From Dictyostelium discoideum (lineage: Eukaryota), in the NCBI GenBank assembly GCA_000004695.1, contig CM000153.2, positions 1,952,001 to 2,016,000 on the forward strand: 64,000 bases of DNA. The letters are read 5' to 3'. The notes below the pieces were generated by a model. The model worked only from the letters and a program-made list of their open reading frames with translations, ran no database searches and had not been told where the DNA came from. Made by a program: the position numbers and the translations under genes. Below, in pieces: positions 9,986 to 57,890 of this stretch. Within the stretch, counting starts at the first letter, position 1, and every line of letters begins with the position of its first letter.

Positions 9986-10105
9986 GAATTTGAATTTGGC
10001 TATGGGTTGGGAAAGATCATTTTTGTTGATTTTTTTTTTTTTTTAGAATTTGAATTTGGCTATGGGTTGGGAAAGATCATTTTTATTGATTTTTTTTTTT
10101 TTTTT
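9986..10105. repeat. Tandem duplication of a ~60-bp unit (2 copies, 1 mismatch) about 260 bp upstream of the sterol-reductase ATG
   Basis: The unit ggaatttgaatttggctatgggttgggaaagatcatttttgttgatttttttttttt… occurs twice head-to-tail. It is unusually GC-rich for this intergenic DNA. Confidence 0.8.
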
Positions 10106-10128
10106 AATTTTTAATTTTTTTTATTTTT

Positions 10129-10162
<34 letters not shown>

Positions 10163-10361
10163 ACTCGTTTTAATCACTCGACCAAAAAATTTTTTTTTTT
10201 TTTTTTTTTCTTTTTTTTCTTTTTCTTTCATTAAAAAAAAACATTACAATAATAATAATAATTTATATATATTTAAATTTGGATAAATAATTTTTATAAT
10301 TAACTTTCCAATATTTTATTTTTTTTATTATTAATATTATTTTTTTTTTTAACTCAACAAA

Positions 10362-11750
10362 ATGTCAGCAGTTAGAAATAGAAATAACGTTGAAAAGCAA
10401 TCAAACAATGGTGCTCAATTAACAGAAGTCCAAAAGAAAGAATTAGCCGACTTACAAAAAGTTCATCCAGCTAATGAATTCGGTGGTATTATTGGTACCT
10501 TCCTCTTAACTTTTATTCTCCCAGTTGTTGTCTATTGGATTTGGGCATCAATTGAATTCAACAATGGTTATCTCTTACGTCCAGAAACCCTTTCAGTCGA
10601 AGGTGTCAAAGCATTCTTGGCTCAACTCTACCACTATGTCATCACTTACGCCTACCCAACCAAAGAAGCAGCCATCATCTACTTCTCATGGTTTGGTTTC
10701 CAAGCATTCCTTCAACACGTTGTTCCAGGTCGTAAAGTTTTAGGTTCACCATTACCAGGTGGTGCTCGTCTCGAATACACCCTCAATGGTTGGGCTTCAT
10801 GGTGGATCACACTCATTGTCATCCCAATTGCCATCTATTTCGGTCTCTTCAAAGCCACCATCCTCATTGACAACTACGCCCCAATGATGACCGTCGTCAA
10901 CATTTGGTCCTTTGTTTTCACTTTCCTCTTAAAAATCCACGCCAAATTAAAGGGTGAAGAAGAACGTATGTCAGGTCACTTCTTTTACGATTTCTGGATG
11001 GGTTTTGCTCGTAATCCACGTATCGGTTCATTCGATCTCAAACTTTTCTGTGAAGCTCGTCCAGGTCTCATCCTTTGGGTTTTAATGAATTTCTCAATTG
11101 CTGCCAAACAACTCGAAGTCTACGGTGAAATTTCACTCTCTGTCATCTTGGTTTGTTGTTTCCACTTCTGGTACATTGCCGATTACTATTATCACGAAGA
11201 AGCCATCCTTACCACTATGGATATCATCACTGAAAAATTCGGTTACATGTTAGTTTATGGTGATTTATCATGGGTCCCATTCACCTATTGTTTCCAATGT
11301 TACTACCTCTACAAACATTTAGTCAACGGTGCTCCATTACACATCTCTATTGGTTACGCCATCTTTGTTGTCTCTTTGAAATGTTTCGGTTTCTATCTCT
11401 TCCGTTGGGTTAACTCACAAAAACACGATTTCCGTCGTAATCCAGAAGCTCCAGTTTGGGGTAAACCAGCTGAATTCATCCTCACCAAACGTGGTACTAA
11501 ATTATTATGCTCTGGTTTCTGGGGTATTTGCCGTCATCTTAACTACACTGGTGATATTATCTTATCATGGGCTTGGTGTCTTCCATGTCAATTCGATTCA
11601 CTTGCTCCATACTTTTATGGTATTTACTTTACTTCATTAGATCTCCACCGTTGTTGGAGAGATCATAATGCTTGTTTAGTTAAATATGGTGATGATTGGA
11701 GAGCTTATTGTAAACGTGTTCCATACAATTTCATTCCAGGTTTAATTTAA
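10362..11750 (+). CDS. ERG4/ERG24-family sterol reductase (7-dehydrocholesterol reductase / delta14-sterol reductase-like), single exon, 462 aa
   Basis: Polytopic membrane protein ending in the family signature …LLCSGFWGICRHLNYTGDIILSWAWCL…YFTSLDLHRCWRDHNACLVKYGDDWRAYCKRVPYNFIPGLI (LLxSGWWgxxRHxNYxGD … RD..C..KYG..W..Y…VPYRiiPgif). Codon usage is strong (C-ending codons), consistent with a well-expressed gene. Confidence 0.85.
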   Translation: MSAVRNRNNVEKQSNNGAQLTEVQKKELADLQKVHPANEFGGIIGTFLLTFILPVVVYWIWASIEFNNGYLLRPETLSVEGVKAFLAQLYHYVITYAYPTKEAAIIYFSWFGFQAFLQHVVPGRKVLGSPLPGGARLEYTLNGWASWWITLIVIPIAIYFGLFKATILIDNYAPMMTVVNIWSFVFTFLLKIHAKLKGEEERMSGHFFYDFWMGFARNPRIGSFDLKLFCEARPGLILWVLMNFSIAAKQLEVYGEISLSVILVCCFHFWYIADYYYHEEAILTTMDIITEKFGYMLVYGDLSWVPFTYCFQCYYLYKHLVNGAPLHISIGYAIFVVSLKCFGFYLFRWVNSQKHDFRRNPEAPVWGKPAEFILTKRGTKLLCSGFWGICRHLNYTGDIILSWAWCLPCQFDSLAPYFYGIYFTSLDLHRCWRDHNACLVKYGDDWRAYCKRVPYNFIPGLI

Positions 11751-19118: not shown

Positions 19119-19160
19119 TATTTTTTTTTATTTTTATTTTTTTCACAAAATAAATAACTA

Positions 19161-19620
19161 ATGTCATTAGAATTTTATAAACAAATATTTGAAGATTGTT
19201 TAAATGATGATGGATTAGTTGTAATGGGTAGTGGATTAGGAATCCATAATATAATATTAGGATTTTTAAAGTTTTATTCAGATACAGATGATTTGGTATT
19301 GTTTTTAGATTGTCAATCCAATGAATCACTTCAAAATTCATACCTCTTTTATCATGAACGTTTATTAAATTTTGGTATCAAATATTCAAATTTACCAACA
19401 ATGGTAAATGTAGAAACTGTTTCAAGTTCAACAAAAACAAATATGTATTCAAAAGGTGGTGTTTATTTTGGTGCCTCTTCAATATTTGTTTTAGATTATC
19501 TTACAAAAAGAATGCCTTGTAATTTAGTTTCTGGTATTATCATTCAAAATGCTCATCGTATAACTGATACTTCAATAGAATATTTATTAATTAAATTATT
19601 TAGACAAAATAATAAAGTAA

Positions 19621-19660
<40 letters not shown>

Positions 19661-22139
19661 GTTATTAATTTTAAAATAAAAAAAAAAAAAAAAAAAAAAG
19701 AAAGGATTTATTAAAGCATTTACAACAGAACCAAGTTTATTAGTTGATGAAATTGGTAAATTACAAAGAACTATGAAGTATTTACATTTAAAGAAATTAT
19801 TTTTATGGCCAAGATTTCATCAACATATATCATTGATTTTAGATAAACATCCACCAGATTTAGTTGAATTATCAATTGGTATGACAAATTCAATGAAAAG
19901 AATCGAAGAATCATTACATTTAAATACACAACGTTGTATATCATCATTGATTGCAATTAATAAATTACCAAGATTAAATGGTGGAAATGGTGGCAATGAC
20001 TCAGATTCATTTGAACAGATTTTAAAACAACAATTAAAACCAATGTGGTCAAAATTAAATTTACATTCAAAACAATTAGTATCAAGTATAAAACTATTGA
20101 ATCAATTAAAGAATAATCTATTAGTTTATGATTGTGTTACATTTTATAGTTTATTACTTTATATTCAAGCATCTTCAGATTCATTAAAGGAAGGTTTACA
20201 TACAAATTCAAACTATGTTGATGAAGTTCAACCTTGGTTAGAATCAAAAGAAGCTCAAAATTTATTTTCTGCTTCTCAAGAAAGAGTTTATAGATTTAAA
20301 AAATTAAATAGTTTAAAAAGTCCACCAAAAAAATTAAAAACTATAAATAATGATAGTAGTAGCAGTAGTAGTAGTAGTAATCTTGAAAAAATATTAACAT
20401 TAGAAGATAACCCAAAATGGAATGTGCTATATCAAATATTACAAGAAATTGAGGAGGATAAAGAAAAACAAGGTACAATTTTAATATTTGTAAAAGATGA
20501 AACAACAGTTAATCAACTTAGTACATATTTGGATTATGGTGGTTATAGTTTTTTATTAGGAAAATATGAAAAATTATGTAGTAATCAACAATATTTAGAT
20601 GAACTTAGAAAAAAAAAAGAAGAAAATAATAATAATAATAATAGTAATAATAATAATAACAATAATAATAACAATAATAATAATAATAGTGTTAAATCTT
20701 TATCATCTAATGATAATGGTGGTTATTCAAGATATCGTAGAACAAAGAATTTTAAAGATAATAGAAAACAACAAATTATTGAAACATCTAAAAAGAAAAA
20801 AGGTAAAGGTGGTACAAATGATCAAAATTTATTTAATATGGGTATACAATTAGTTGATGGTCATAATAAATTAAATATACCAAATCCTAAATTTATAAAT
20901 CAAGATGGAAGTGGTGGTGGTGGTGATAATGGTGATGAAAATAATAATAACAATAATAATTTAAATATTAATGATGGATTAACAATTGCATCAATGAATG
21001 AAGAAATTAATGGATTAAATGATTTTTATGAATTATTATCACCACCTTATATTGTAATACATCCAATTAGTAAATCGTTAACGATTTTAGATGAAATTAG
21101 ACCAACTTTTATAATTGTTTATGATCCAGATATTTCAATCACTAGACAAATCGAAGTTTATAAAGCAGAGAATCCAGGCACACCAGTTAGATTATATTTT
21201 ATGACATATTCAGATTCATCGGAAGAGTATCAATATATTTCAAAATTACAAAGAGAGAAATCTTCATTTGAAAAATTAATTAGAGAGAAAACAAATTTAA
21301 TCATTGATACTGAACAAGAAGGTAAGATTCAATTGGTTGATAATAGTAAGTTAGAGTTATTGGATGATATGAAATCAACACGTAATTCAAGATTGGGTGG
21401 TTTAATGAAAAACTTTGATTCAATACAACAACAACAACAACAACAACAACAAAAAAAGACTATAATTATTGATAGTCATGAATTTAAATCAAGTTTACCT
21501 GTGGTTTTACATAATAATGGTTATGAAATTATACCATTACGTTTGGAAGTTGGCGATTTCGTTTTATCACCAATACATTGTATAGAAAGAAAATCAGTTT
21601 CAGATTTAATTGGTTCATTCAATTCTGGTCGTTTATTCACCCAAATCGAAGCAATGAATCGTATCTATAAAAATCCAATACTATTAATTGAATTTGATCC
21701 AAATCAACCATTTTATTTAGTTGCACCAGATGAATTACAAAAGGATTATTTATCACCTTTTTCACTACCAAGTAAATTGGTATTCCTTACTAAAACATTT
21801 CCAAGATTACGTGTTATTTGGTCAAGAAGTTATTATTGTACAACTAAAATTTATGATCAAATTAAAGATGGTTATCCTGAACCTGATCCTTCAATGGTAA
21901 ATGTAATACCAGAGGTTAACGATGATCAGAATTATAATTTCAATGCTCAAGATGTACTTCGTACAATGCCTGGTGTAAATGATAAAAACATTAATTTAAT
22001 TATGGATAATGTTGATGATCTTTATCATCTTTCAAAATTATCATTATCAGAATTTTCAACAATTATGAATGATTCAGTAAATAATAATAAGAATGCAACA
22101 TTGTTATTTAATTTCTTTAATAATCAATTAAATCAATAA
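19161..22139 (+). CDS. ercc4: DNA repair endonuclease XPF / ERCC4 (Rad1) homologue; 2 exons: 19161..19616, 19701..22139 (about 964 aa)
   Basis: N-terminus MSLEFYKQIFEDCLNDDGLVVMGSGLG…GGVYFGASSIFVLDYLTKRMPCNLVSGIIIQNAHRI…LFRQNNK|KGFIKAFTTEPSLLVDEIGKLQRTMKYLHLKKLFLWPRFH… parallels the human XPF helicase-like domain ([20 protein letters not shown]…RLFRQKNKRGFIKAFTDN…LYLWPRFH). The ERCC4 nuclease motif is …IIIDSHEFKSSLPVVLHNNGYEIIPLRLEVGDFVLSP…ERKSVSDLIGSFNSGRLFTQ (human: [60 protein letters not shown]). A C-terminal HhH region follows. The intron (GTAAAT … aaaaag|) is 84 nt and is largely poly(A). Confidence 0.85.
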
Positions 22140-31104: not shown

Positions 31105-31854
31105 TTATTGTGAAGATAATCTTTTAGCGGCATCTAAAGCGACTTCTAACATCTTAAAGGTACCTTGATGAACGACATCTCTGTTTGGTTCGTATTTTTC
31201 AGAGATTTCTCTTTCAAAGATATAGTTATCAATGTTTACACAAGCACCAGCTCTAATTCCTCTGAGGGAAGCGACGATGAATAAGATGGAGGCTTCCATT
31301 TCGATGGCTAAAACCTTTGAACGAGCCCATAATTTATTGTGGTTACCTAATGGACCATCGAAAAAGTGACCAACGGTTGTGATGATACCAACACCGTATT
31401 GCTCATTTGAGAGACCATTTGATTTAGCGGATTCGATGAGAGCACCAACAACTTCGTGATCAGAGATTGCTGGATAGCCAAGTGGGACCAAACCCTCGGA
31501 AACACCATCACTTCTGACGGCACCGGTTGCAATGACAAGACTACCCTCACGATAACGTGGATCGAATGAGCCTGCTGTACCTGCACGAATGATGGTTGTA
31601 ACACCTGCTTGAATTAACTCTTCGAAACAAACTGATGCACCACCACCACCAATACCATGTGACATAACTAACATTTCTGTATCTTTCCACATACCTTTAT
31701 AACAATGGAATTCTCTAACTGCGCATACTAATTCAGTGACCACAAAGTGTTTCTCTGATACTAATTTGGCTCTATTTGGATCACCAACTACAACACATAC
31801 TTTTGGTAATTTACCTATTGGTAATAAACAAATTGGTGTTACTTTAATTTCCAT
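31105..31854 (-). CDS. Uridine phosphorylase, bacterial Udp/DeoD-like (PNP_UDP_1 family), single exon, 249 aa
   Basis: Collinear with E. coli Udp as I recall it: GDPNRAKLVS (Udp GDPDRVEKIA), REFHCYKGMWKDTEMLVMSHGIGGGGASVCFEELIQAGVTTIIRAGTAGS (Udp [50 protein letters not shown]), IEMEASILF (Udp YEMESATLL), GIRAGACVNI. There is no intron, and this is the most GC-rich coding segment in the window. Confidence 0.85.
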   Translation of the reverse strand: MEIKVTPICLLPIGKLPKVCVVVGDPNRAKLVSEKHFVVTELVCAVREFHCYKGMWKDTEMLVMSHGIGGGGASVCFEELIQAGVTTIIRAGTAGSFDPRYREGSLVIATGAVRSDGVSEGLVPLGYPAISDHEVVGALIESAKSNGLSNEQYGVGIITTVGHFFDGPLGNHNKLWARSKVLAIEMEASILFIVASLRGIRAGACVNIDNYIFEREISEKYEPNRDVVHQGTFKMLEVALDAAKRLSSQ

Positions 31855-55559: not shown

Positions 55560-56163
55560 ATTTTGGTTTAATCAATTTGTTCAAGTATTCCTCTCAATTA
55601 CTCTATTCCCTGGTGATGTCAGTTAATTGTTATGGTGCTTGGTTACTGTAGCTAAATGTTTGCTAACCATGAGACATAACCAGAGTATATCAAAGGGCTT
55701 ATTATTATAGTAGCAGAGTAAAGCCTCTGGATTTGATGGATCAGATGATATTGGCTTTTTTTAGTNNNNNNNNNNNNNNNNNNNNNNNNNNNNNNNNNNN
55801 NNNNNNNNNNNNNNNNNNNNNNNNNNNNNNNNNNNNNNNNNNNNNNNNNNNNNNNNNNNNNNNNNTAAAAAAAAAAAAAAAAAAATTAATACCCAGGTTT
55901 CGTCATCATTCAAAAACTATTATTGTAATAGTTTTTTACGTTTTTTTTTTAAATTTCAGAGATATATGCAAATATTCATCAAAGAATCTTTTTTTTTTTT
56001 TTTTAATTTTTTTTTTTTTTAATTTTTTTTTTTTTTAATTTTTTTTTTTTTTTTTTTATTTTCTTTTGTAAGTTCTAAAAATCTTTCAATTTTATCAACT
56101 TTATTTTTTAAACAGTTGTTATAATAAAAAATGTAGGTATAATTTCATTTAATATTACATGTT

Positions 56164-56197
<34 letters not shown>

Positions 56198-57890
56198 CTT
56201 ATAAAGTTTTTATTAAAAATAGAATTTATAGATAAAATGTTAATTGCATATGCAGAAAGTCTACATACCGGAGTTCAACCAGATATTACTTATTTAACTT
56301 TACTTAAAGGTTTTGGTTTTGATTCAAATTGTAAATGGACATTACTAGACAATTCAAAAAATGATGTAAATTTAAATTCTAAAATTTCACCTGGCGAATA
56401 TAAATTTGGTAGTTGTGGTGACATTGGTTTAATAATGTTAAATATTAAAAAATAATAATTTAAATAAAATAAATAAATAATTTGGTATGTGTGTGTGGTG
56501 TATACCACACATCATTGCTTTTTCAGATTATTTGGGTGTGTTCCTCCTCTCCATCAAAATCTTTAATAAACTTCAACAAATAATATTTATTCTTTCCAAC
56601 ATAAAATCCAAACTTTTTTTTTTTTTAATTTTTTTTTTATTTTTTTTATTTTTTTTTTCTTTTTTTTTTTCTTTTTTTTTTTTCATGGTCCAACCAAGAC
56701 TCATCCAAAAGAAAAAATAAAAATTAGTCAAAAAAAAGTCTTAAGTTCAACTTTTCCCATTTTTTTTTGGCATCACCATGGGTTTTTTAATTTATTTTTT
56801 ATTAATTTTTTATCTTTTTTTTATCTTTTTTTTTTTTGATATTTAAATTTGTTTTTTTTTTTTTATTTCATTCCTCAATTCAACAAAACATTAAACTCAT
56901 TAAACAAATGTAATAAAAAACATTTAACGCATTAAAAAATTTTTTTTTTTTTTATTTAGCCAACTCAAAGAAGTTCTTTGATGTAAACTTGATGAATCAT
57001 CATCTCGATACGAATCGAATCAAGTAACCTCCAAATAGAGTAGAAGTATTCCACAATTGACACGAGGCTTTTTTAGGCACCCACCCAAATGTTCAGGCTC
57101 CATCTCAATTGCTTGTGCGTCTTCAACATGTTACTGGCTAGGATTTGTTGTGTACCCACTCTCTCGATCAAGTAATCTGCATATCTAGTGATGGCTTCTA
57201 ATTAACCCGGTGCTTTGCCTTCTACCCAACGATTGCTAACCAGTGATCCGTTGAAATAGTATTTATACTGCTCAAAAGGATCGATATGGAAAGGGTCAAC
57301 AAAATAAATCTTGTCCTTTTTATTTATACTGCTCAAAAGGATCGATATGAAAAGGGTCAAGATCATCAAATCCAGAAGCCTTACTTGGCCGCCACAACGA
57401 CTATTGACATTCTTAAGTGTTGAACAAAGAAACAAAGTCTCAGAAATATGAAATGTTCAAGCAAGAACTCTAACAAGTACTGTGCCATCTCATATTTTTG
57501 AGATTTTTGTTTTTTCGATCAACTATTGGGAATGTTGTTGGTCATTGTCTCTTTCAAAGAGCAATTGCTCACAACCTTTCATTACCGGCTTGGATCTGCC
57601 TGTACCCACTCTCTCGATCAAGTACTATGTATATCTATTGATGGCTGCTAATTGATCTGGTGCTTTGCATACTACACAATGTTTTCAAACTCATAAAGGT
57701 GGTAACCAGCAAACCCAGAGGCTTTACTCTCCTACTATAATGACTTTTGACATATTCAAGTGTTGAAGAAAGAAACAAAGTCTCAGAAATATGAAATGTT
57801 GAAGCAAGAACTGTTATGAGTACTGTACCATCTCATATTTTTGAGATTTTCGTTTTTTCGATCAACTATTGGCCAACAAAATTTAAAATA
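55560..57890. mobile_element. Composite interspersed repeat / probable transposable-element remnant with internal duplications, interrupted by an assembly gap (55766..55865)
   Basis: GC-richer non-coding blocks at 55560-55765 and 56950-57890. Within 57140-57890 a ~230-450-bp unit is duplicated in direct orientation: 57147-57215 ≈ 57600-57680 (TGTACCCACTCTCTCGATCAAGTA…GGTGCTTTGC…), 57424-57535 ≈ 57765-57885 (GAACAAAGAAACAAAGTCTCAGAAATATGAAATGTTCAAGCAAGAACT…CATCTCATATTTTTGAGATTTT…TTTTTTCGATCAACTATTGG), plus a local 55-bp tandem duplication (57262-57318 / 57320-57362). The motif CCAGAGGCTTTACTCT(C/G)CTACTATAAT at 57711-57738 recurs inverted at 55700-55745, next to the gap. I found no intact transposase or RT ORF and no tRNA gene nearby. 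Confidence 0.4.
55766..55865. other. Assembly gap (100 N)
   Basis: Run of n. ORF 55733..56038 spanning it (XXXX) is an artefact. Confidence 0.95.

What the first reader, a model, noticed from the sequence alone, without database searches (positions are those of the whole stretch)
31105..31854. Bacterial-type uridine phosphorylase (Udp/DeoD family) gene, intronless and compositionally distinct, in an amoebozoan chromosome
The 249-aa ORF aligns block-for-block with enterobacterial Udp (GDP(D/N)R…, …STGIGGPS…EEL…G(I/V)(R/T)T…R(I/A)GT(T/A)G(A/S)…, (Y/I)EME(S/A)…, G(L/I)RAG…). This is the bacterial hexameric PNP/UDP-1 fold, not the eukaryotic UPP1/UPP2 type or the trimeric PNP found in most eukaryotes. 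It is intronless while most neighbours have introns, and it is the most GC-rich coding stretch in the window. This combination is the usual signature of an ancient bacteria-to-amoeba gene transfer, which I recall being reported for a small set of Dictyostelium genes. Whether this particular gene is on that list I cannot tell from the sequence alone.
Basis: partly seen in the sequence, partly recalled or inferred. Interest (0 to 1): 0.55.

Follow-up and report, generated by a model that had tools for sequence, protein, structure and literature searches.

The report
Amoeba nucleoside phosphorylase of bacterial type
This is the already-annotated Dictyostelium discoideum "uridine phosphorylase" gene: a real, intronless, bacterial-type nucleoside phosphorylase that was probably acquired from bacteria very long ago, is now fully native in composition, and looks more like a malaria-parasite-type purine nucleoside phosphorylase than like E. 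coli Udp.

Summary
The 249-aa ORF at 31105-31854 (minus strand) is real. Its product is identical to D. discoideum AX4 XP_638626.1 / UniProt Q54PM8, which is annotated "uridine phosphorylase". It belongs to the NP-I superfamily (PF01048).

It fails the Udp equivalog models. It is 30% identical to E. coli Udp and 28% to DeoD. It lacks the Udp insertion that carries the uracil-binding Gln166 and Arg168. A profile of its subfamily scores best against Plasmodium PNPs, and an invariant Asp209 occupies the position of the PfPNP general acid Asp206. It is therefore probably a purine nucleoside phosphorylase, and the "Udp" label is doubtful.

The composition claim is only partly right. A canonical sterol-reductase gene in the same window has equal GC and higher GC3. 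The target's codon usage is native (RSCU r=0.87 with neighbours). Being intronless is true but not diagnostic.

The phylogeny supports an ancient interdomain transfer. Macromycetozoa are monophyletic (100%) inside a subfamily (80-96%) that holds Arcella, other protist transcripts and a few bacteria (Anaerolineae, 58% identity). This subfamily is separate from the alveolate PNPs. Donor, direction and number of events are unresolved.

The gene is not on the published list of 16 Dictyostelium HGT candidates. Overall it is an ordinary, known gene, and the work yields a modest re-annotation.

The parts
31105..31854 (-). Complete intronless CDS (249 codons plus TAA stop). The product is identical to D. 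discoideum AX4 XP_638626.1 / EAL65264.1 / UniProt Q54PM8.
   Evidence: ORF list; exact-sequence cluster look-up; gene model of 750 bp for 249 aa in two other D. discoideum assemblies; Pfam PF01048 E 5.9e-33.
31771..31785 (-). GDPNR motif (residues 24-28). Gly24 and Arg28 correspond to the phosphate-site residues PfPNP Gly23/Arg27 and EcUdp Arg30.
   Evidence: Residue map; coordinates; PfPNP residues from PMC2721837.
31714..31716 (-). Arg47. It corresponds to the phosphate-binding Arg donated by the neighbouring subunit (PfPNP Arg45', EcUdp Arg48). It is invariant in all 64 family members examined.
31633..31662 (-). SHGIGGGGAS, the subfamily signature (E. coli Udp has [10 protein letters not shown] here).
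   Evidence: Alignments A1 and A2. The pattern SHG[VI]G[GA]GGAS was one of the two used for the GTDB scan.
31567..31587 (-). RAGTAGS. Arg90 and Thr93 correspond to the phosphate/ribose residues PfPNP Arg88/Ser91 and EcUdp Arg91/Thr94.
31351..31365 (-). FFDGP (residues 164-168). Phe164 corresponds to EcUdp Phe162 and PfPNP Tyr160. This is where E. coli Udp carries its 13-residue insertion with Gln166 and Arg168; the insertion is absent here.
   Evidence: Alignment A1; residue map.
31294..31302 (-). E185-M186-E187. This is the ribose-binding Met/Glu pair (PfPNP Met183/Glu184; EcUdp Met197/Glu198).
31222..31236 (-). NIDNY (residues 207-211). Asp209 (31228-31230) is invariant in the family and occupies the position of the PfPNP general acid Asp206, with the same 23-residue spacing from the catalytic Met.
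   Evidence: Profile-to-PDB alignment; residue map; role of Asp206 from PMC2721837.
31831..31833 (-). Ile8. It replaces the His (EcUdp His8, EcDeoD His4, PfPNP His7') that contacts the ribose 5'-OH from the neighbouring subunit. It is Ile in all 13 Macromycetozoa examined.
31180..31194 (-). YEPNR (residues 221-225), a signature of the amoeba/Anaerolineae near-subfamily in the C-terminal active-site lid region.
   Evidence: Invariant columns Y221, P223 and R225 in A2.

Best explanation
The ORF is the D. discoideum gene for a hexamer-type NP-I nucleoside phosphorylase. The enzyme most likely cleaves purine nucleosides with phosphate to give the free base and ribose-1-phosphate. That would feed salvage and pentose catabolism in a cell that digests bacterial nucleic acids. 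It uses the standard NP-I active site at a dimer interface: a phosphate site (Gly24, Arg28, Arg90, Thr93, plus Arg47 from the partner subunit), a ribose site (Met186, Glu187), and an Asp209 general acid acting on the base, as in Plasmodium PNP. It is not an E. coli-type Udp.

Evolutionarily, it belongs to a small subfamily shared by Macromycetozoa, Arcella, other protists and a few bacteria, and this subfamily is embedded in a bacterial family. The best reading is an ancient bacteria-to-Amoebozoa transfer that happened before Dictyostelia, Myxogastria and Protosporangiida diverged. Complete amelioration followed. The relatively high GC today reflects a Gly/Ala/Val-rich conserved enzyme and native, expression-type codon bias, not foreign origin.

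Shown: identity, family, fold, conserved residues, distribution and native codon usage. Inferred: substrate, oligomeric state, direction and date of the transfer.
For: Identity: exact match to XP_638626.1/Q54PM8.

Family and fold: PF01048. The AF2 model has pLDDT 89. Top Foldseek matches are Trichomonas, Toxoplasma and Plasmodium PNPs, S. pyogenes UP and T. thermophilus PNP. Target-normalised TM is 0.89-0.92 for the PNPs and 0.80-0.85 for Udps that carry the insertion.

Not Udp: scores fall below both Udp equivalog cutoffs. The Gln166/Arg168 insertion is deleted and Arg223 is replaced by Ile. PMC7271239 states that these Gln and Arg residues distinguish UP from PNP.

PNP-like: the subfamily profile scores 192 bits against Plasmodium PNPs, about 156 against E. 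coli-type Udp and about 122 against DeoD, and the alignment to the Plasmodium PNPs is nearly gap-free. Asp209 is invariant in 64 of 64 members and occupies the position of the PfPNP general acid Asp206. Several PfPNP entries in the PDB carry the same 'uridine phosphorylase, putative' label. PMC2721837 describes Plasmodium PNPs as equidistant from PNPs and UPs.

Bacterial context: the homolog P0036 lies directly downstream of a PfkB-family kinase.

Evolution: orthologs of 81-91% identity occur in all dictyostelid genera. Physarum, Ceratiomyxa and Clastostelium have orthologs of 68-70%. Macromycetozoa are monophyletic at 100%, and the near-subfamily is recovered at 86, 96 and 80% in three datasets. 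A eukaryote-wide clade is recovered in 0 of 500 replicates, while PfPNP + Perkinsus group with Ozemobacteraceae-type bacteria at 94%. The nearest GTDB species are two Anaerolineae MAGs at 58%, followed by Bacillota at 45% or less.

Long residence: RSCU correlates at r=0.87 with pooled neighbours and 0.36 with the closest bacterial gene. GGT is 88% of Gly codons, CCA 100% of Pro codons, and only 3.7% of codons end in G. Heterostelium and Tieghemostelium both have ERCC4 adjacent, and ERCC4 lies about 9 kb away in this window. A subfamily member on a protist-like scaffold has spliceosomal introns. In D. discoideum, highly expressed genes deviate further from the AT-rich neutral codon usage (PMC8321536).
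Against: No enzyme assay exists for this protein or for any member of its near-subfamily, so the substrate is inferred. NCBIfam's best single hit is still the Udp model. PfPNP base-pocket residues Pro209 and Trp212 are Ile212 and Arg215 here, and the 5'-OH-contacting His is Ile8, so specificity may differ from PfPNP. MAFFT places Asp209 opposite Ser203 of E. coli DeoD rather than Asp204, a one-residue register ambiguity.

The trees are neighbour-joining trees with a simple distance correction. Branching inside the near-subfamily has 6-15% support and the deep backbone is unstable. The near-subfamily is mostly eukaryotic, with only about 6 bacterial sequences. One of these (P0033) sits among transposase and integrase genes, so eukaryote-to-bacterium transfer for those members is not excluded. 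High expression is inferred from codon bias alone.
Confidence: 0.7

Rival explanations
1. It would bind uracil with residues different from both known UP classes.
For: The best NCBIfam hit is TIGR01718 Udp at 148.9 bits, against 106 for DeoD. The best single-sequence PDB hit is a putative Udp, 4r31. S. pyogenes UP, a second UP subclass with a different set of uracil-binding residues, is among the top sequence and structure hits. Precedent therefore exists for UPs that lack the canonical residues.
Against: The score is far below both Udp cutoffs. Gln166 and Arg168 are deleted and Arg223 is Ile. In the alignment, the S. pyogenes UP segment CKDAFYGQHEPERMP aligns with TVGHFFDG-gap-P, so no Lys/Gln/His counterparts are visible either. 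An invariant Asp sits at the purine-N7 general-acid position, which E. coli Udp lacks. The profile scores Plasmodium PNPs 23-36 bits above any UP.
Confidence: 0.15
2. The gene was inherited vertically from the last eukaryotic common ancestor, and its patchy distribution reflects widespread loss. No horizontal transfer occurred.
For: Hexamer-type NP-I enzymes occur in several eukaryotic supergroups: Amoebozoa, Alveolata (Plasmodium, Toxoplasma, Perkinsus), Trichomonas and Entamoeba. Codon usage is fully native and synteny is conserved among dictyostelids. The near-subfamily is numerically dominated by eukaryotic sequences.
Against: Eukaryote monophyly was never recovered (0 of 500 replicates). 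Alveolate PNPs group with a different set of bacteria at 94%. Identity to the Anaerolineae protein (58%) is higher than to the second eukaryotic cluster (51-52%) or to Perkinsus (39%). No animal, fungal or plant member appeared among the listed hits. The only animal-labelled hit sits on a protist-like scaffold.
Confidence: 0.1
3. The gene is a recent bacterial acquisition or an assembly contaminant, as 'compositionally distinct and intronless' might suggest.
For: It is intronless. GC is 0.40 in a window that averages 0.22.
Against: The identical protein occurs in chromosome-scale assemblies of several D. discoideum strains and sister species. The flanks are typical AT-rich Dictyostelium DNA. 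Orthologs exist in every dictyostelid genus and in myxogastrids. Codon usage is native. The closest bacterial protein is only 58% identical. No relative was found in viral contigs.
Confidence: 0.01

Closest known systems
Plasmodium falciparum / P. vivax purine nucleoside phosphorylase (PfPNP; PDB 1nw4, 2bsx, 3enz, 5znc, 3emv)
   Same: It is the best-scoring solved relative of the subfamily profile, at 192 bits with a nearly gapless alignment. It has the same chain length and lacks the Udp insertion. The phosphate site (Gly, 3 Arg, Ser/Thr), the ribose Met/Glu pair and the general-acid Asp (Asp206 = Asp209) are all shared. It is also mislabelled 'uridine phosphorylase, putative' in several database entries. 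PMC2721837 describes Plasmodium PNPs as equidistant from PNPs and UPs.
   Different: Identity is only about 26% in the Foldseek alignments. PfPNP falls in a different clade, with Perkinsus and Ozemobacteraceae-type bacteria (94%). The lid residues Pro209 and Trp212 are Ile212 and Arg215 here, and His7' is Ile8. The Dictyostelium enzyme has not been assayed.
Escherichia coli uridine phosphorylase Udp (b3831; PDB 1k3f etc.; TIGR01718 / NF008383)
   Same: It belongs to the NP-I superfamily and shares the GDPxR, R(E/F), (S/T)xGxG, EEL, RxGTxG and EME motifs and the same phosphate and ribose residues.
   Different: Identity is 30%. The target lacks the 13-residue insertion carrying Gln166 and Arg168, and Arg223 is replaced by Ile212. 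E. coli Udp has no Asp at the general-acid position. The target scores below both equivalog cutoffs.
Escherichia coli DeoD-type hexameric PNP (b4384; TIGR00107 / NF004489)
   Same: The chain length is similar, there is no Udp insertion, and the catalytic architecture is shared. The Foldseek target-normalised TM is about 0.89-0.91.
   Different: Identity is 28%. Scores are 82 and 106 bits against cutoffs of 232 and 230. The profile score is only about 122 bits. The Asp register differs by one residue and there is no clear Arg217 counterpart.
The published Dictyostelium HGT candidates (ThyA/Thy1, IptA, Ppk1, PscA, ColA Cna_B, TerD-type CapA/B, and others)
   Same: The protein is of bacterial type, is conserved in D. 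purpureum, and (like ThyA) is also present in Physarum. This implies an early acquisition.
   Different: PNP_UDP_1 is not among the 16 Pfam families listed. [quoted passage not shown] The claim therefore rests on subfamily phylogeny alone.

Membership tests
NP-I nucleoside phosphorylase superfamily (Pfam PF01048 PNP_UDP_1) | Match to the family HMM above the gathering threshold | tested here: met
   114.7 bits against a cutoff of 25.1, E 5.9e-33, residues 18-214.
NP-I nucleoside phosphorylase superfamily (Pfam PF01048 PNP_UDP_1) | Single-domain alpha/beta fold of hexamer-type NP-I enzymes | tested here: met
   AF2 model with pLDDT 89 and pTM 0.89. Foldseek TM is 0.81-0.92 to PNP and UP crystal structures.
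NP-I nucleoside phosphorylase superfamily (Pfam PF01048 PNP_UDP_1) | Conserved phosphate site (Gly, three Arg including one from the partner subunit, Ser/Thr) and ribose-binding Met-Glu | tested here: met
   G24, R28, R47, R90, T93, M186 and E187 are all conserved.
NP-I nucleoside phosphorylase superfamily (Pfam PF01048 PNP_UDP_1) | Hexameric (trimer-of-dimers) quaternary structure | not testable with these tools
   This is only inferred, from conservation of the partner-subunit Arg47 and from similarity to hexameric enzymes.
Bacterial uridine phosphorylase Udp (TIGR01718, NF008383 equivalogs) | Score at or above the curated equivalog cutoff | tested here: not met
   148.9 against 280.3, and 125 against 262.
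Bacterial uridine phosphorylase Udp (TIGR01718, NF008383 equivalogs) | Uracil-binding Gln166 and Arg168 on the UP-specific insertion, which PMC7271239 says distinguish UP from PNP | tested here: not met
   The insertion is absent in this protein and in all 64 family members aligned.
Bacterial uridine phosphorylase Udp (TIGR01718, NF008383 equivalogs) | Arg223 contacting uracil | tested here: not met
   The aligned residue is Ile212. That Arg223 contacts uracil is from my own knowledge.
DeoD-type hexameric PNP (TIGR00107, NF004489) | Score at or above the curated cutoff | tested here: not met
   82.3 against 232.25, and 106.3 against 230.
DeoD-type hexameric PNP (TIGR00107, NF004489) | General-acid Asp204 following the last beta-strand | tested here: inconclusive
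   Asp209 aligns one residue away from E. coli Asp204 in MAFFT, but exactly with PfPNP Asp206.
Plasmodium-type PNP | Best profile similarity and a collinear alignment without the Udp insertion | tested here: met
   192 bits, E 9e-56, with single-residue gaps only.
Plasmodium-type PNP | General acid Asp206 | tested here: met
   Asp209 is invariant in 64 of 64 members.
Plasmodium-type PNP | His7' to the ribose 5'-OH, and lid residues Pro209 and Trp212 | tested here: not met
   The corresponding residues are Ile8, Ile212 and Arg215.
Plasmodium-type PNP | Same phylogenetic clade as PfPNP | tested here: not met
   PfPNP groups with Perkinsus and Ozemobacteraceae-type sequences at 94%, not with the amoeba subfamily.
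Plasmodium-type PNP | Inosine/guanosine (and methylthioinosine) phosphorolysis activity | not testable with these tools
   This needs an enzyme assay.
Eukaryotic UPP1/UPP2-type uridine phosphorylase (TIGR01719) | Score at or above the curated cutoff | tested here: not met
   16.9 against 249.95 bits.
Horizontally acquired gene of bacterial origin in Amoebozoa | The eukaryotic clade is nested among bacterial sequences and is not part of a eukaryote-wide clade | tested here: met
   A eukaryote-wide clade was recovered in 0 of 500 replicates. The near-subfamily has 80-96% support within an otherwise bacterial family. These are NJ trees only, and the backbone is weak.
Horizontally acquired gene of bacterial origin in Amoebozoa | An identifiable donor lineage as a well-supported sister group | tested here: inconclusive
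   The closest bacteria are Anaerolineae MAGs at 58%, but the sister relationship has only 6-15% support.
Horizontally acquired gene of bacterial origin in Amoebozoa | Deviant composition or codon usage relative to the host genome | tested here: not met
   RSCU correlates at r=0.87 with neighbours, and a native eukaryotic gene in the window has equal GC and higher GC3. This is expected for an ancient transfer, so it is uninformative rather than contradictory.
Horizontally acquired gene of bacterial origin in Amoebozoa | Listed among the published Dictyostelium HGT candidates | tested here: not met
   It is not in Table 2 of PMC3188802. It was also not found in PMC9255765, either in the main text or in the supplements.

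The most novel reading that the evidence does not exclude
The amoeba/Anaerolineae near-subfamily could define an uncharacterised specificity class of NP-I phosphorylases. Its signatures are SHG(V/I)GGGGAS, N(I/V)DNYIFER and YEPNR, and the ribose 5'-OH-contacting His is replaced by Ile in all Macromycetozoa. The more hydrophobic 5' pocket might suit 5'-deoxy or 5'-methylthio purine nucleosides, or another modified nucleoside. Under this reading the gene was acquired once near the base of Amoebozoa (Evosea + Tubulinea) and later passed back to a few bacteria.
Probability: 0.15. Interest if true: 0.5.

Novelty: already known. Interest (0 to 1): 0.25.

Why it matters
The practical value is a correction. 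The database name "uridine phosphorylase" for Q54PM8 and its dictyostelid orthologs is similarity-based and probably wrong. The sequence features point to a Plasmodium-PNP-like purine nucleoside phosphorylase. This affects metabolic reconstructions of purine and pyrimidine salvage in a model organism that lives on bacterial nucleic acids.

The finding also adds a plausible, very old interdomain transfer to the Amoebozoa. This one is not on the classical list of 16 genes. It shows that GC content and intronlessness are poor HGT indicators in this genome, because native, conserved genes look the same. None of this is surprising to a specialist. Bacterial-type NP-I enzymes in protists are well known, and no new mechanism is implied.

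Tried and rejected
(1) Eichinger et al. 2005 could not be read: PMC1352341 and PubMed id 15875012 are not held. I used the updated HGT table in PMC3188802 instead.

(2) Literature searches for Dictyostelium combined with uridine phosphorylase, purine nucleoside phosphorylase or HGT found nothing specific to this gene. The Trepomonas paper and the 'Old genes in new places' paper, including its supplements, do not mention it.

(3) PMC10900210 concerns indels in trimeric PNPs. It is only loosely relevant and I did not rely on it.

(4) The Foldseek PDB search confirmed the fold, but on its own it could not separate PNP from UP because all hits have TM 0.8-0.9. The profile-to-PDB search was the informative one.

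(5) L003 and L004, the ~970-bp SRA contigs, looked like transcripts. They are bounded by homopolymer runs and match the genome exactly, so I do not use them as evidence for mRNA ends or expression.

(6) Adding GTDB tblastn fragments destabilised the backbone of the tree; one of them, L045, is frameshifted. No donor phylum can be named.

(7) I considered a giant-virus route. No relative was found in the viral contigs.

(8) tRNA and Rfam scans of the window found nothing.

(9) I rejected the idea that the 45-58% identity hits are all bacterial. L049 and the P0041 cluster look eukaryotic.
Full report
OBSERVATION

The window is extremely AT-rich (GC 0.22). It is 99.6% identical to a D. discoideum chromosome assembly, CM142510.1.

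At 31105-31854 on the minus strand there is an ATG-to-TAA ORF of 249 codons. Its product is identical, residue for residue, to D. discoideum AX4 XP_638626.1 / EAL65264.1 / UniProt Q54PM8, which is annotated 'uridine phosphorylase'. The object is therefore real and already catalogued.

It matches Pfam PF01048 (PNP_UDP_1) at E 5.9e-33.

WHAT FAMILY IT IS

The NCBIfam equivalog models do not accept it as Udp (148.9 bits against a cutoff of 280.3; 125 against 262). They do not accept it as DeoD either (82 against 232; 106 against 230). The eukaryotic UPP model gives only 16.9 bits.

I aligned it with authentic E. coli Udp and DeoD taken from the MG1655 genome. It is 30% identical to Udp and 28% to DeoD. 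It lacks the 13-residue Udp insertion (…GQERYDTYSGRVVRH…), as does every member of its subfamily.

That insertion carries Gln166 and Arg168. [quoted passage not shown] Arg223 of Udp is Ile212 here.

An AlphaFold2 model is confident (pLDDT 89). It superposes on hexamer-type NP-I crystal structures. Target-normalised TM is 0.89-0.92 for Trichomonas, Toxoplasma, Plasmodium, Thermus and E. coli PNPs. It is 0.80-0.85 for Udps that carry the insertion.

The decisive comparison used a profile of the subfamily against all PDB sequences:
- Plasmodium PNPs come first, at 192 bits (E 9e-56).
- Toxoplasma PNP scores 171 and S. pyogenes UP scores 169.
- E. coli-type Udp scores about 156 and DeoD about 122.
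- The alignment to PfPNP has only single-residue gaps.

I mapped the PfPNP active-site residues given in PMC2721837 onto the Dictyostelium protein:

| PfPNP residue | Dictyostelium residue |
|---|---|
| Gly23 | Gly24 |
| Arg27 | Arg28 |
| Arg45' | Arg47 |
| Arg88 | Arg90 |
| Ser91 | Thr93 |
| Met183 | Met186 |
| Glu184 | Glu187 |
| Asp206 (general acid for purine N7) | Asp209 |

Asp209 is invariant in all 64 family members examined and keeps the same 23-residue spacing from the Met.

There are also differences from PfPNP:
- His7', the contact to the ribose 5'-OH, is Ile8 in all 13 Macromycetozoa.
- The lid residues Pro209 and Trp212 are Ile212 and Arg215.

Several PfPNP entries in the PDB carry the same 'uridine phosphorylase, putative' label. 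PMC2721837 notes that Plasmodium PNPs are equidistant from PNPs and UPs.

I conclude that the protein most likely works as a purine nucleoside phosphorylase of the Plasmodium-PNP type. Its lid and 5' pocket are distinct, and the exact substrate range is untested.

COMPOSITION AND INTRONS

The CDS has GC 0.400, with GC1 0.522, GC2 0.410 and GC3 0.273. It is not the most GC-rich coding stretch. The ERG4/ERG24 sterol reductase ORF at 10353-11747 is a canonical eukaryotic gene, and it has GC 0.399 and GC3 0.372.

Most of the target's excess GC lies at codon positions 1 and 2. That reflects a Gly/Ala/Val-rich conserved enzyme without the N/K/S/Q low-complexity tracts of its neighbours.

Its synonymous choices are the native ones:
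- GGT is 88% of Gly codons.
- CCA is 100% of Pro codons.
- Arg uses only AGA and CGT.
- TTA is 70% of Leu codons.
- CAA is 100% of Gln codons.
- Only 3.7% of codons end in G.

RSCU correlates at 0.87 with 17 pooled neighbouring ORFs, and at only 0.36 with the closest bacterial gene.

C is used in 41% of the pooled C/T-ending pairs (seven amino acids including Ile), against 5-25% in most neighbours and 54% in ERG4/ERG24. In D. discoideum, highly expressed genes sit further from the AT-rich neutral expectation (PMC8321536). Translational selection therefore explains the GC3 value and foreign origin does not. The association of C-ending codons with high expression is my own knowledge.

The gene is intronless, and 7 of 8 complete neighbouring models contain introns. 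However, the adjacent SDR gene and the ERG4/ERG24 ORF are also uninterrupted. From memory, roughly a third of D. discoideum genes lack introns (Eichinger et al. 2005; I could not read the paper here).

Orthologs in Heterostelium and Tieghemostelium are intronless too. A subfamily member on a gene-dense, protist-like scaffold has GT-starting introns.

DISTRIBUTION AND PHYLOGENY

Orthologs occur in many eukaryotes:
- Every dictyostelid genus sampled has one, at 81-91% identity.
- Physarum (68%), Ceratiomyxa (69%) and Clastostelium (69%) have them as well.
- Many ~950-bp environmental contigs carry them, and the one examined, L011, ends in a poly(A) tail.

A second cluster at about 51% identity contains several eukaryote-like sequences:
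- EukProt transcripts.
- Arcella intermedia, of the Tubulinea.
- Contig L049, which also encodes an FeSOD with a presequence-like N-terminal extension. That extension is matched only by eukaryotic and mRNA-sized environmental hits.

The closest bacteria are two Anaerolineae MAGs at 58%. They are the only close hits among 185,579 GTDB species, and the next ones are Bacillota at 45% or less. Three further bacterial cases were examined:
- P0033 sits among transposase, STAND and TIR genes.
- P0036 sits just downstream of a PfkB kinase.
- P0039 sits near uvrB.

Bootstrapped NJ trees gave these results:

| Grouping | Support |
|---|---|
| Macromycetozoa | 100% |
| Near-subfamily (amoebae + these bacteria) | 79%, 86%, 96%, 80% in four datasets |
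| Macromycetozoa + Perkinsus + PfPNP | 0 of 500 replicates |
| PfPNP + Perkinsus + Ozemobacteraceae-type bacteria | 94% |

Order within the near-subfamily has only 6-15% support, and the deep backbone is unresolved. An exhaustive HMMER scan of 1.84 billion representatives found only 49 clusters at E <= 1e-30. No viral relatives were found.

Among dictyostelids the gene stays in the neighbourhood of ERCC4/XPF. It is adjacent in two species and about 9 kb away in this window, which is consistent with vertical descent within the group.

INTERPRETATION

An ancient interdomain transfer therefore remains the best explanation. It predates the Dictyostelia-Myxogastria-Protosporangiida split and may be as old as the Evosea-Tubulinea split.

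The donor is unknown, although the closest bacteria are Chloroflexota. The number of events is unknown too. For the few bacterial members of the near-subfamily, even the direction of transfer is open.

The gene is not on the published list of 16 Dictyostelium HGT candidates (PMC3188802 Table 2). I found no paper that discusses it.

Bacterial-type NP-I enzymes in protists are well documented by crystal structures from Plasmodium, Toxoplasma, Trichomonas and Entamoeba. This is therefore an ordinary member of a known pattern.

VERDICT

This is a real, known, functional metabolic gene.
- The 'Udp' assignment is probably wrong, and the compositional argument does not hold up.

Interest is low to moderate (0.25).

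Noticed in passing
L051 (GCA_023897955.2 scaffold JAKZLS010000243.1, 597 kb, 'Schistocerca gregaria'), gene at 10001-11194: A 'uridine phosphorylase-like' protein annotated in the desert locust (P0257) belongs to the amoeba-rich subfamily. Its scaffold has 49% GC and about one gene per 2.3 kb, and it carries an SH2-domain protein kinase, dyskerin, a CDC48-like AAA protein and a BAR-RhoGAP protein. This looks like a compact protist genome, possibly a contaminant or parasite, rather than locust DNA. The gene has GT-starting introns.
   Followed up: partly
L049 (JGI 3300030743 contig Ga0265461_10035162, 1709 bp); probably also the 1575-bp contig of P0044/P0129: An FeSOD with a presequence-like N-terminal extension lies 148 bp upstream of a subfamily member on the same strand of a short contig that ends in AATAAA…AAAA. 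The closest SOD homolog (80%) lies on a contig of the same length as that of P0044. This suggests a conserved SOD-PNP gene pair in an unidentified soil eukaryote.
   Followed up: partly
window 56960-57870: This stretch is GC-rich (about 0.39) and non-coding, with no ORF of 100 codons or more. It contains internal direct repeats with copies about 350-450 bp apart, for example 'gtacccactctctcgatcaagta' and 'aagaaacaaagtctcagaaatatgaaatgtt'. There is no Rfam or tRNA match. It is probably a transposon or LTR remnant. It is one reason why GC peaks in this window are not specific to the target gene.
   Followed up: partly
window 10353-11747 (+): This is an ERG4/ERG24-family sterol reductase in a single uninterrupted ORF (Pfam E 3e-125). 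It has the strongest codon bias in the window (GC3 0.372; GGT is 100% of Gly codons). It served as a native control for the composition argument.
   Followed up: yes
window 19158-22136 (+); L047 1766-3961; L048 3020-5686: An ERCC4/XPF homolog lies about 9 kb from the target in D. discoideum. It is the immediate upstream neighbour of the ortholog in Heterostelium album and Tieghemostelium lacteum. This is loose conserved synteny, with an inversion and inserted genes in D. discoideum.
   Followed up: partly
window about 55770-55870 (within the frame 55673-56035): A run of ambiguous bases (34 X in translation, about 100 N) indicates an assembly gap in the window.
   Followed up: no
L006 1475-1774 and L050 2138-2557: In two unrelated bacterial contigs that carry near-subfamily members (P0033, P0039), a YjbQ-family gene lies within about 1 kb of the phosphorylase gene. 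In L007 the neighbour is a PfkB kinase instead. The association is possibly functional but was not examined.
   Followed up: no
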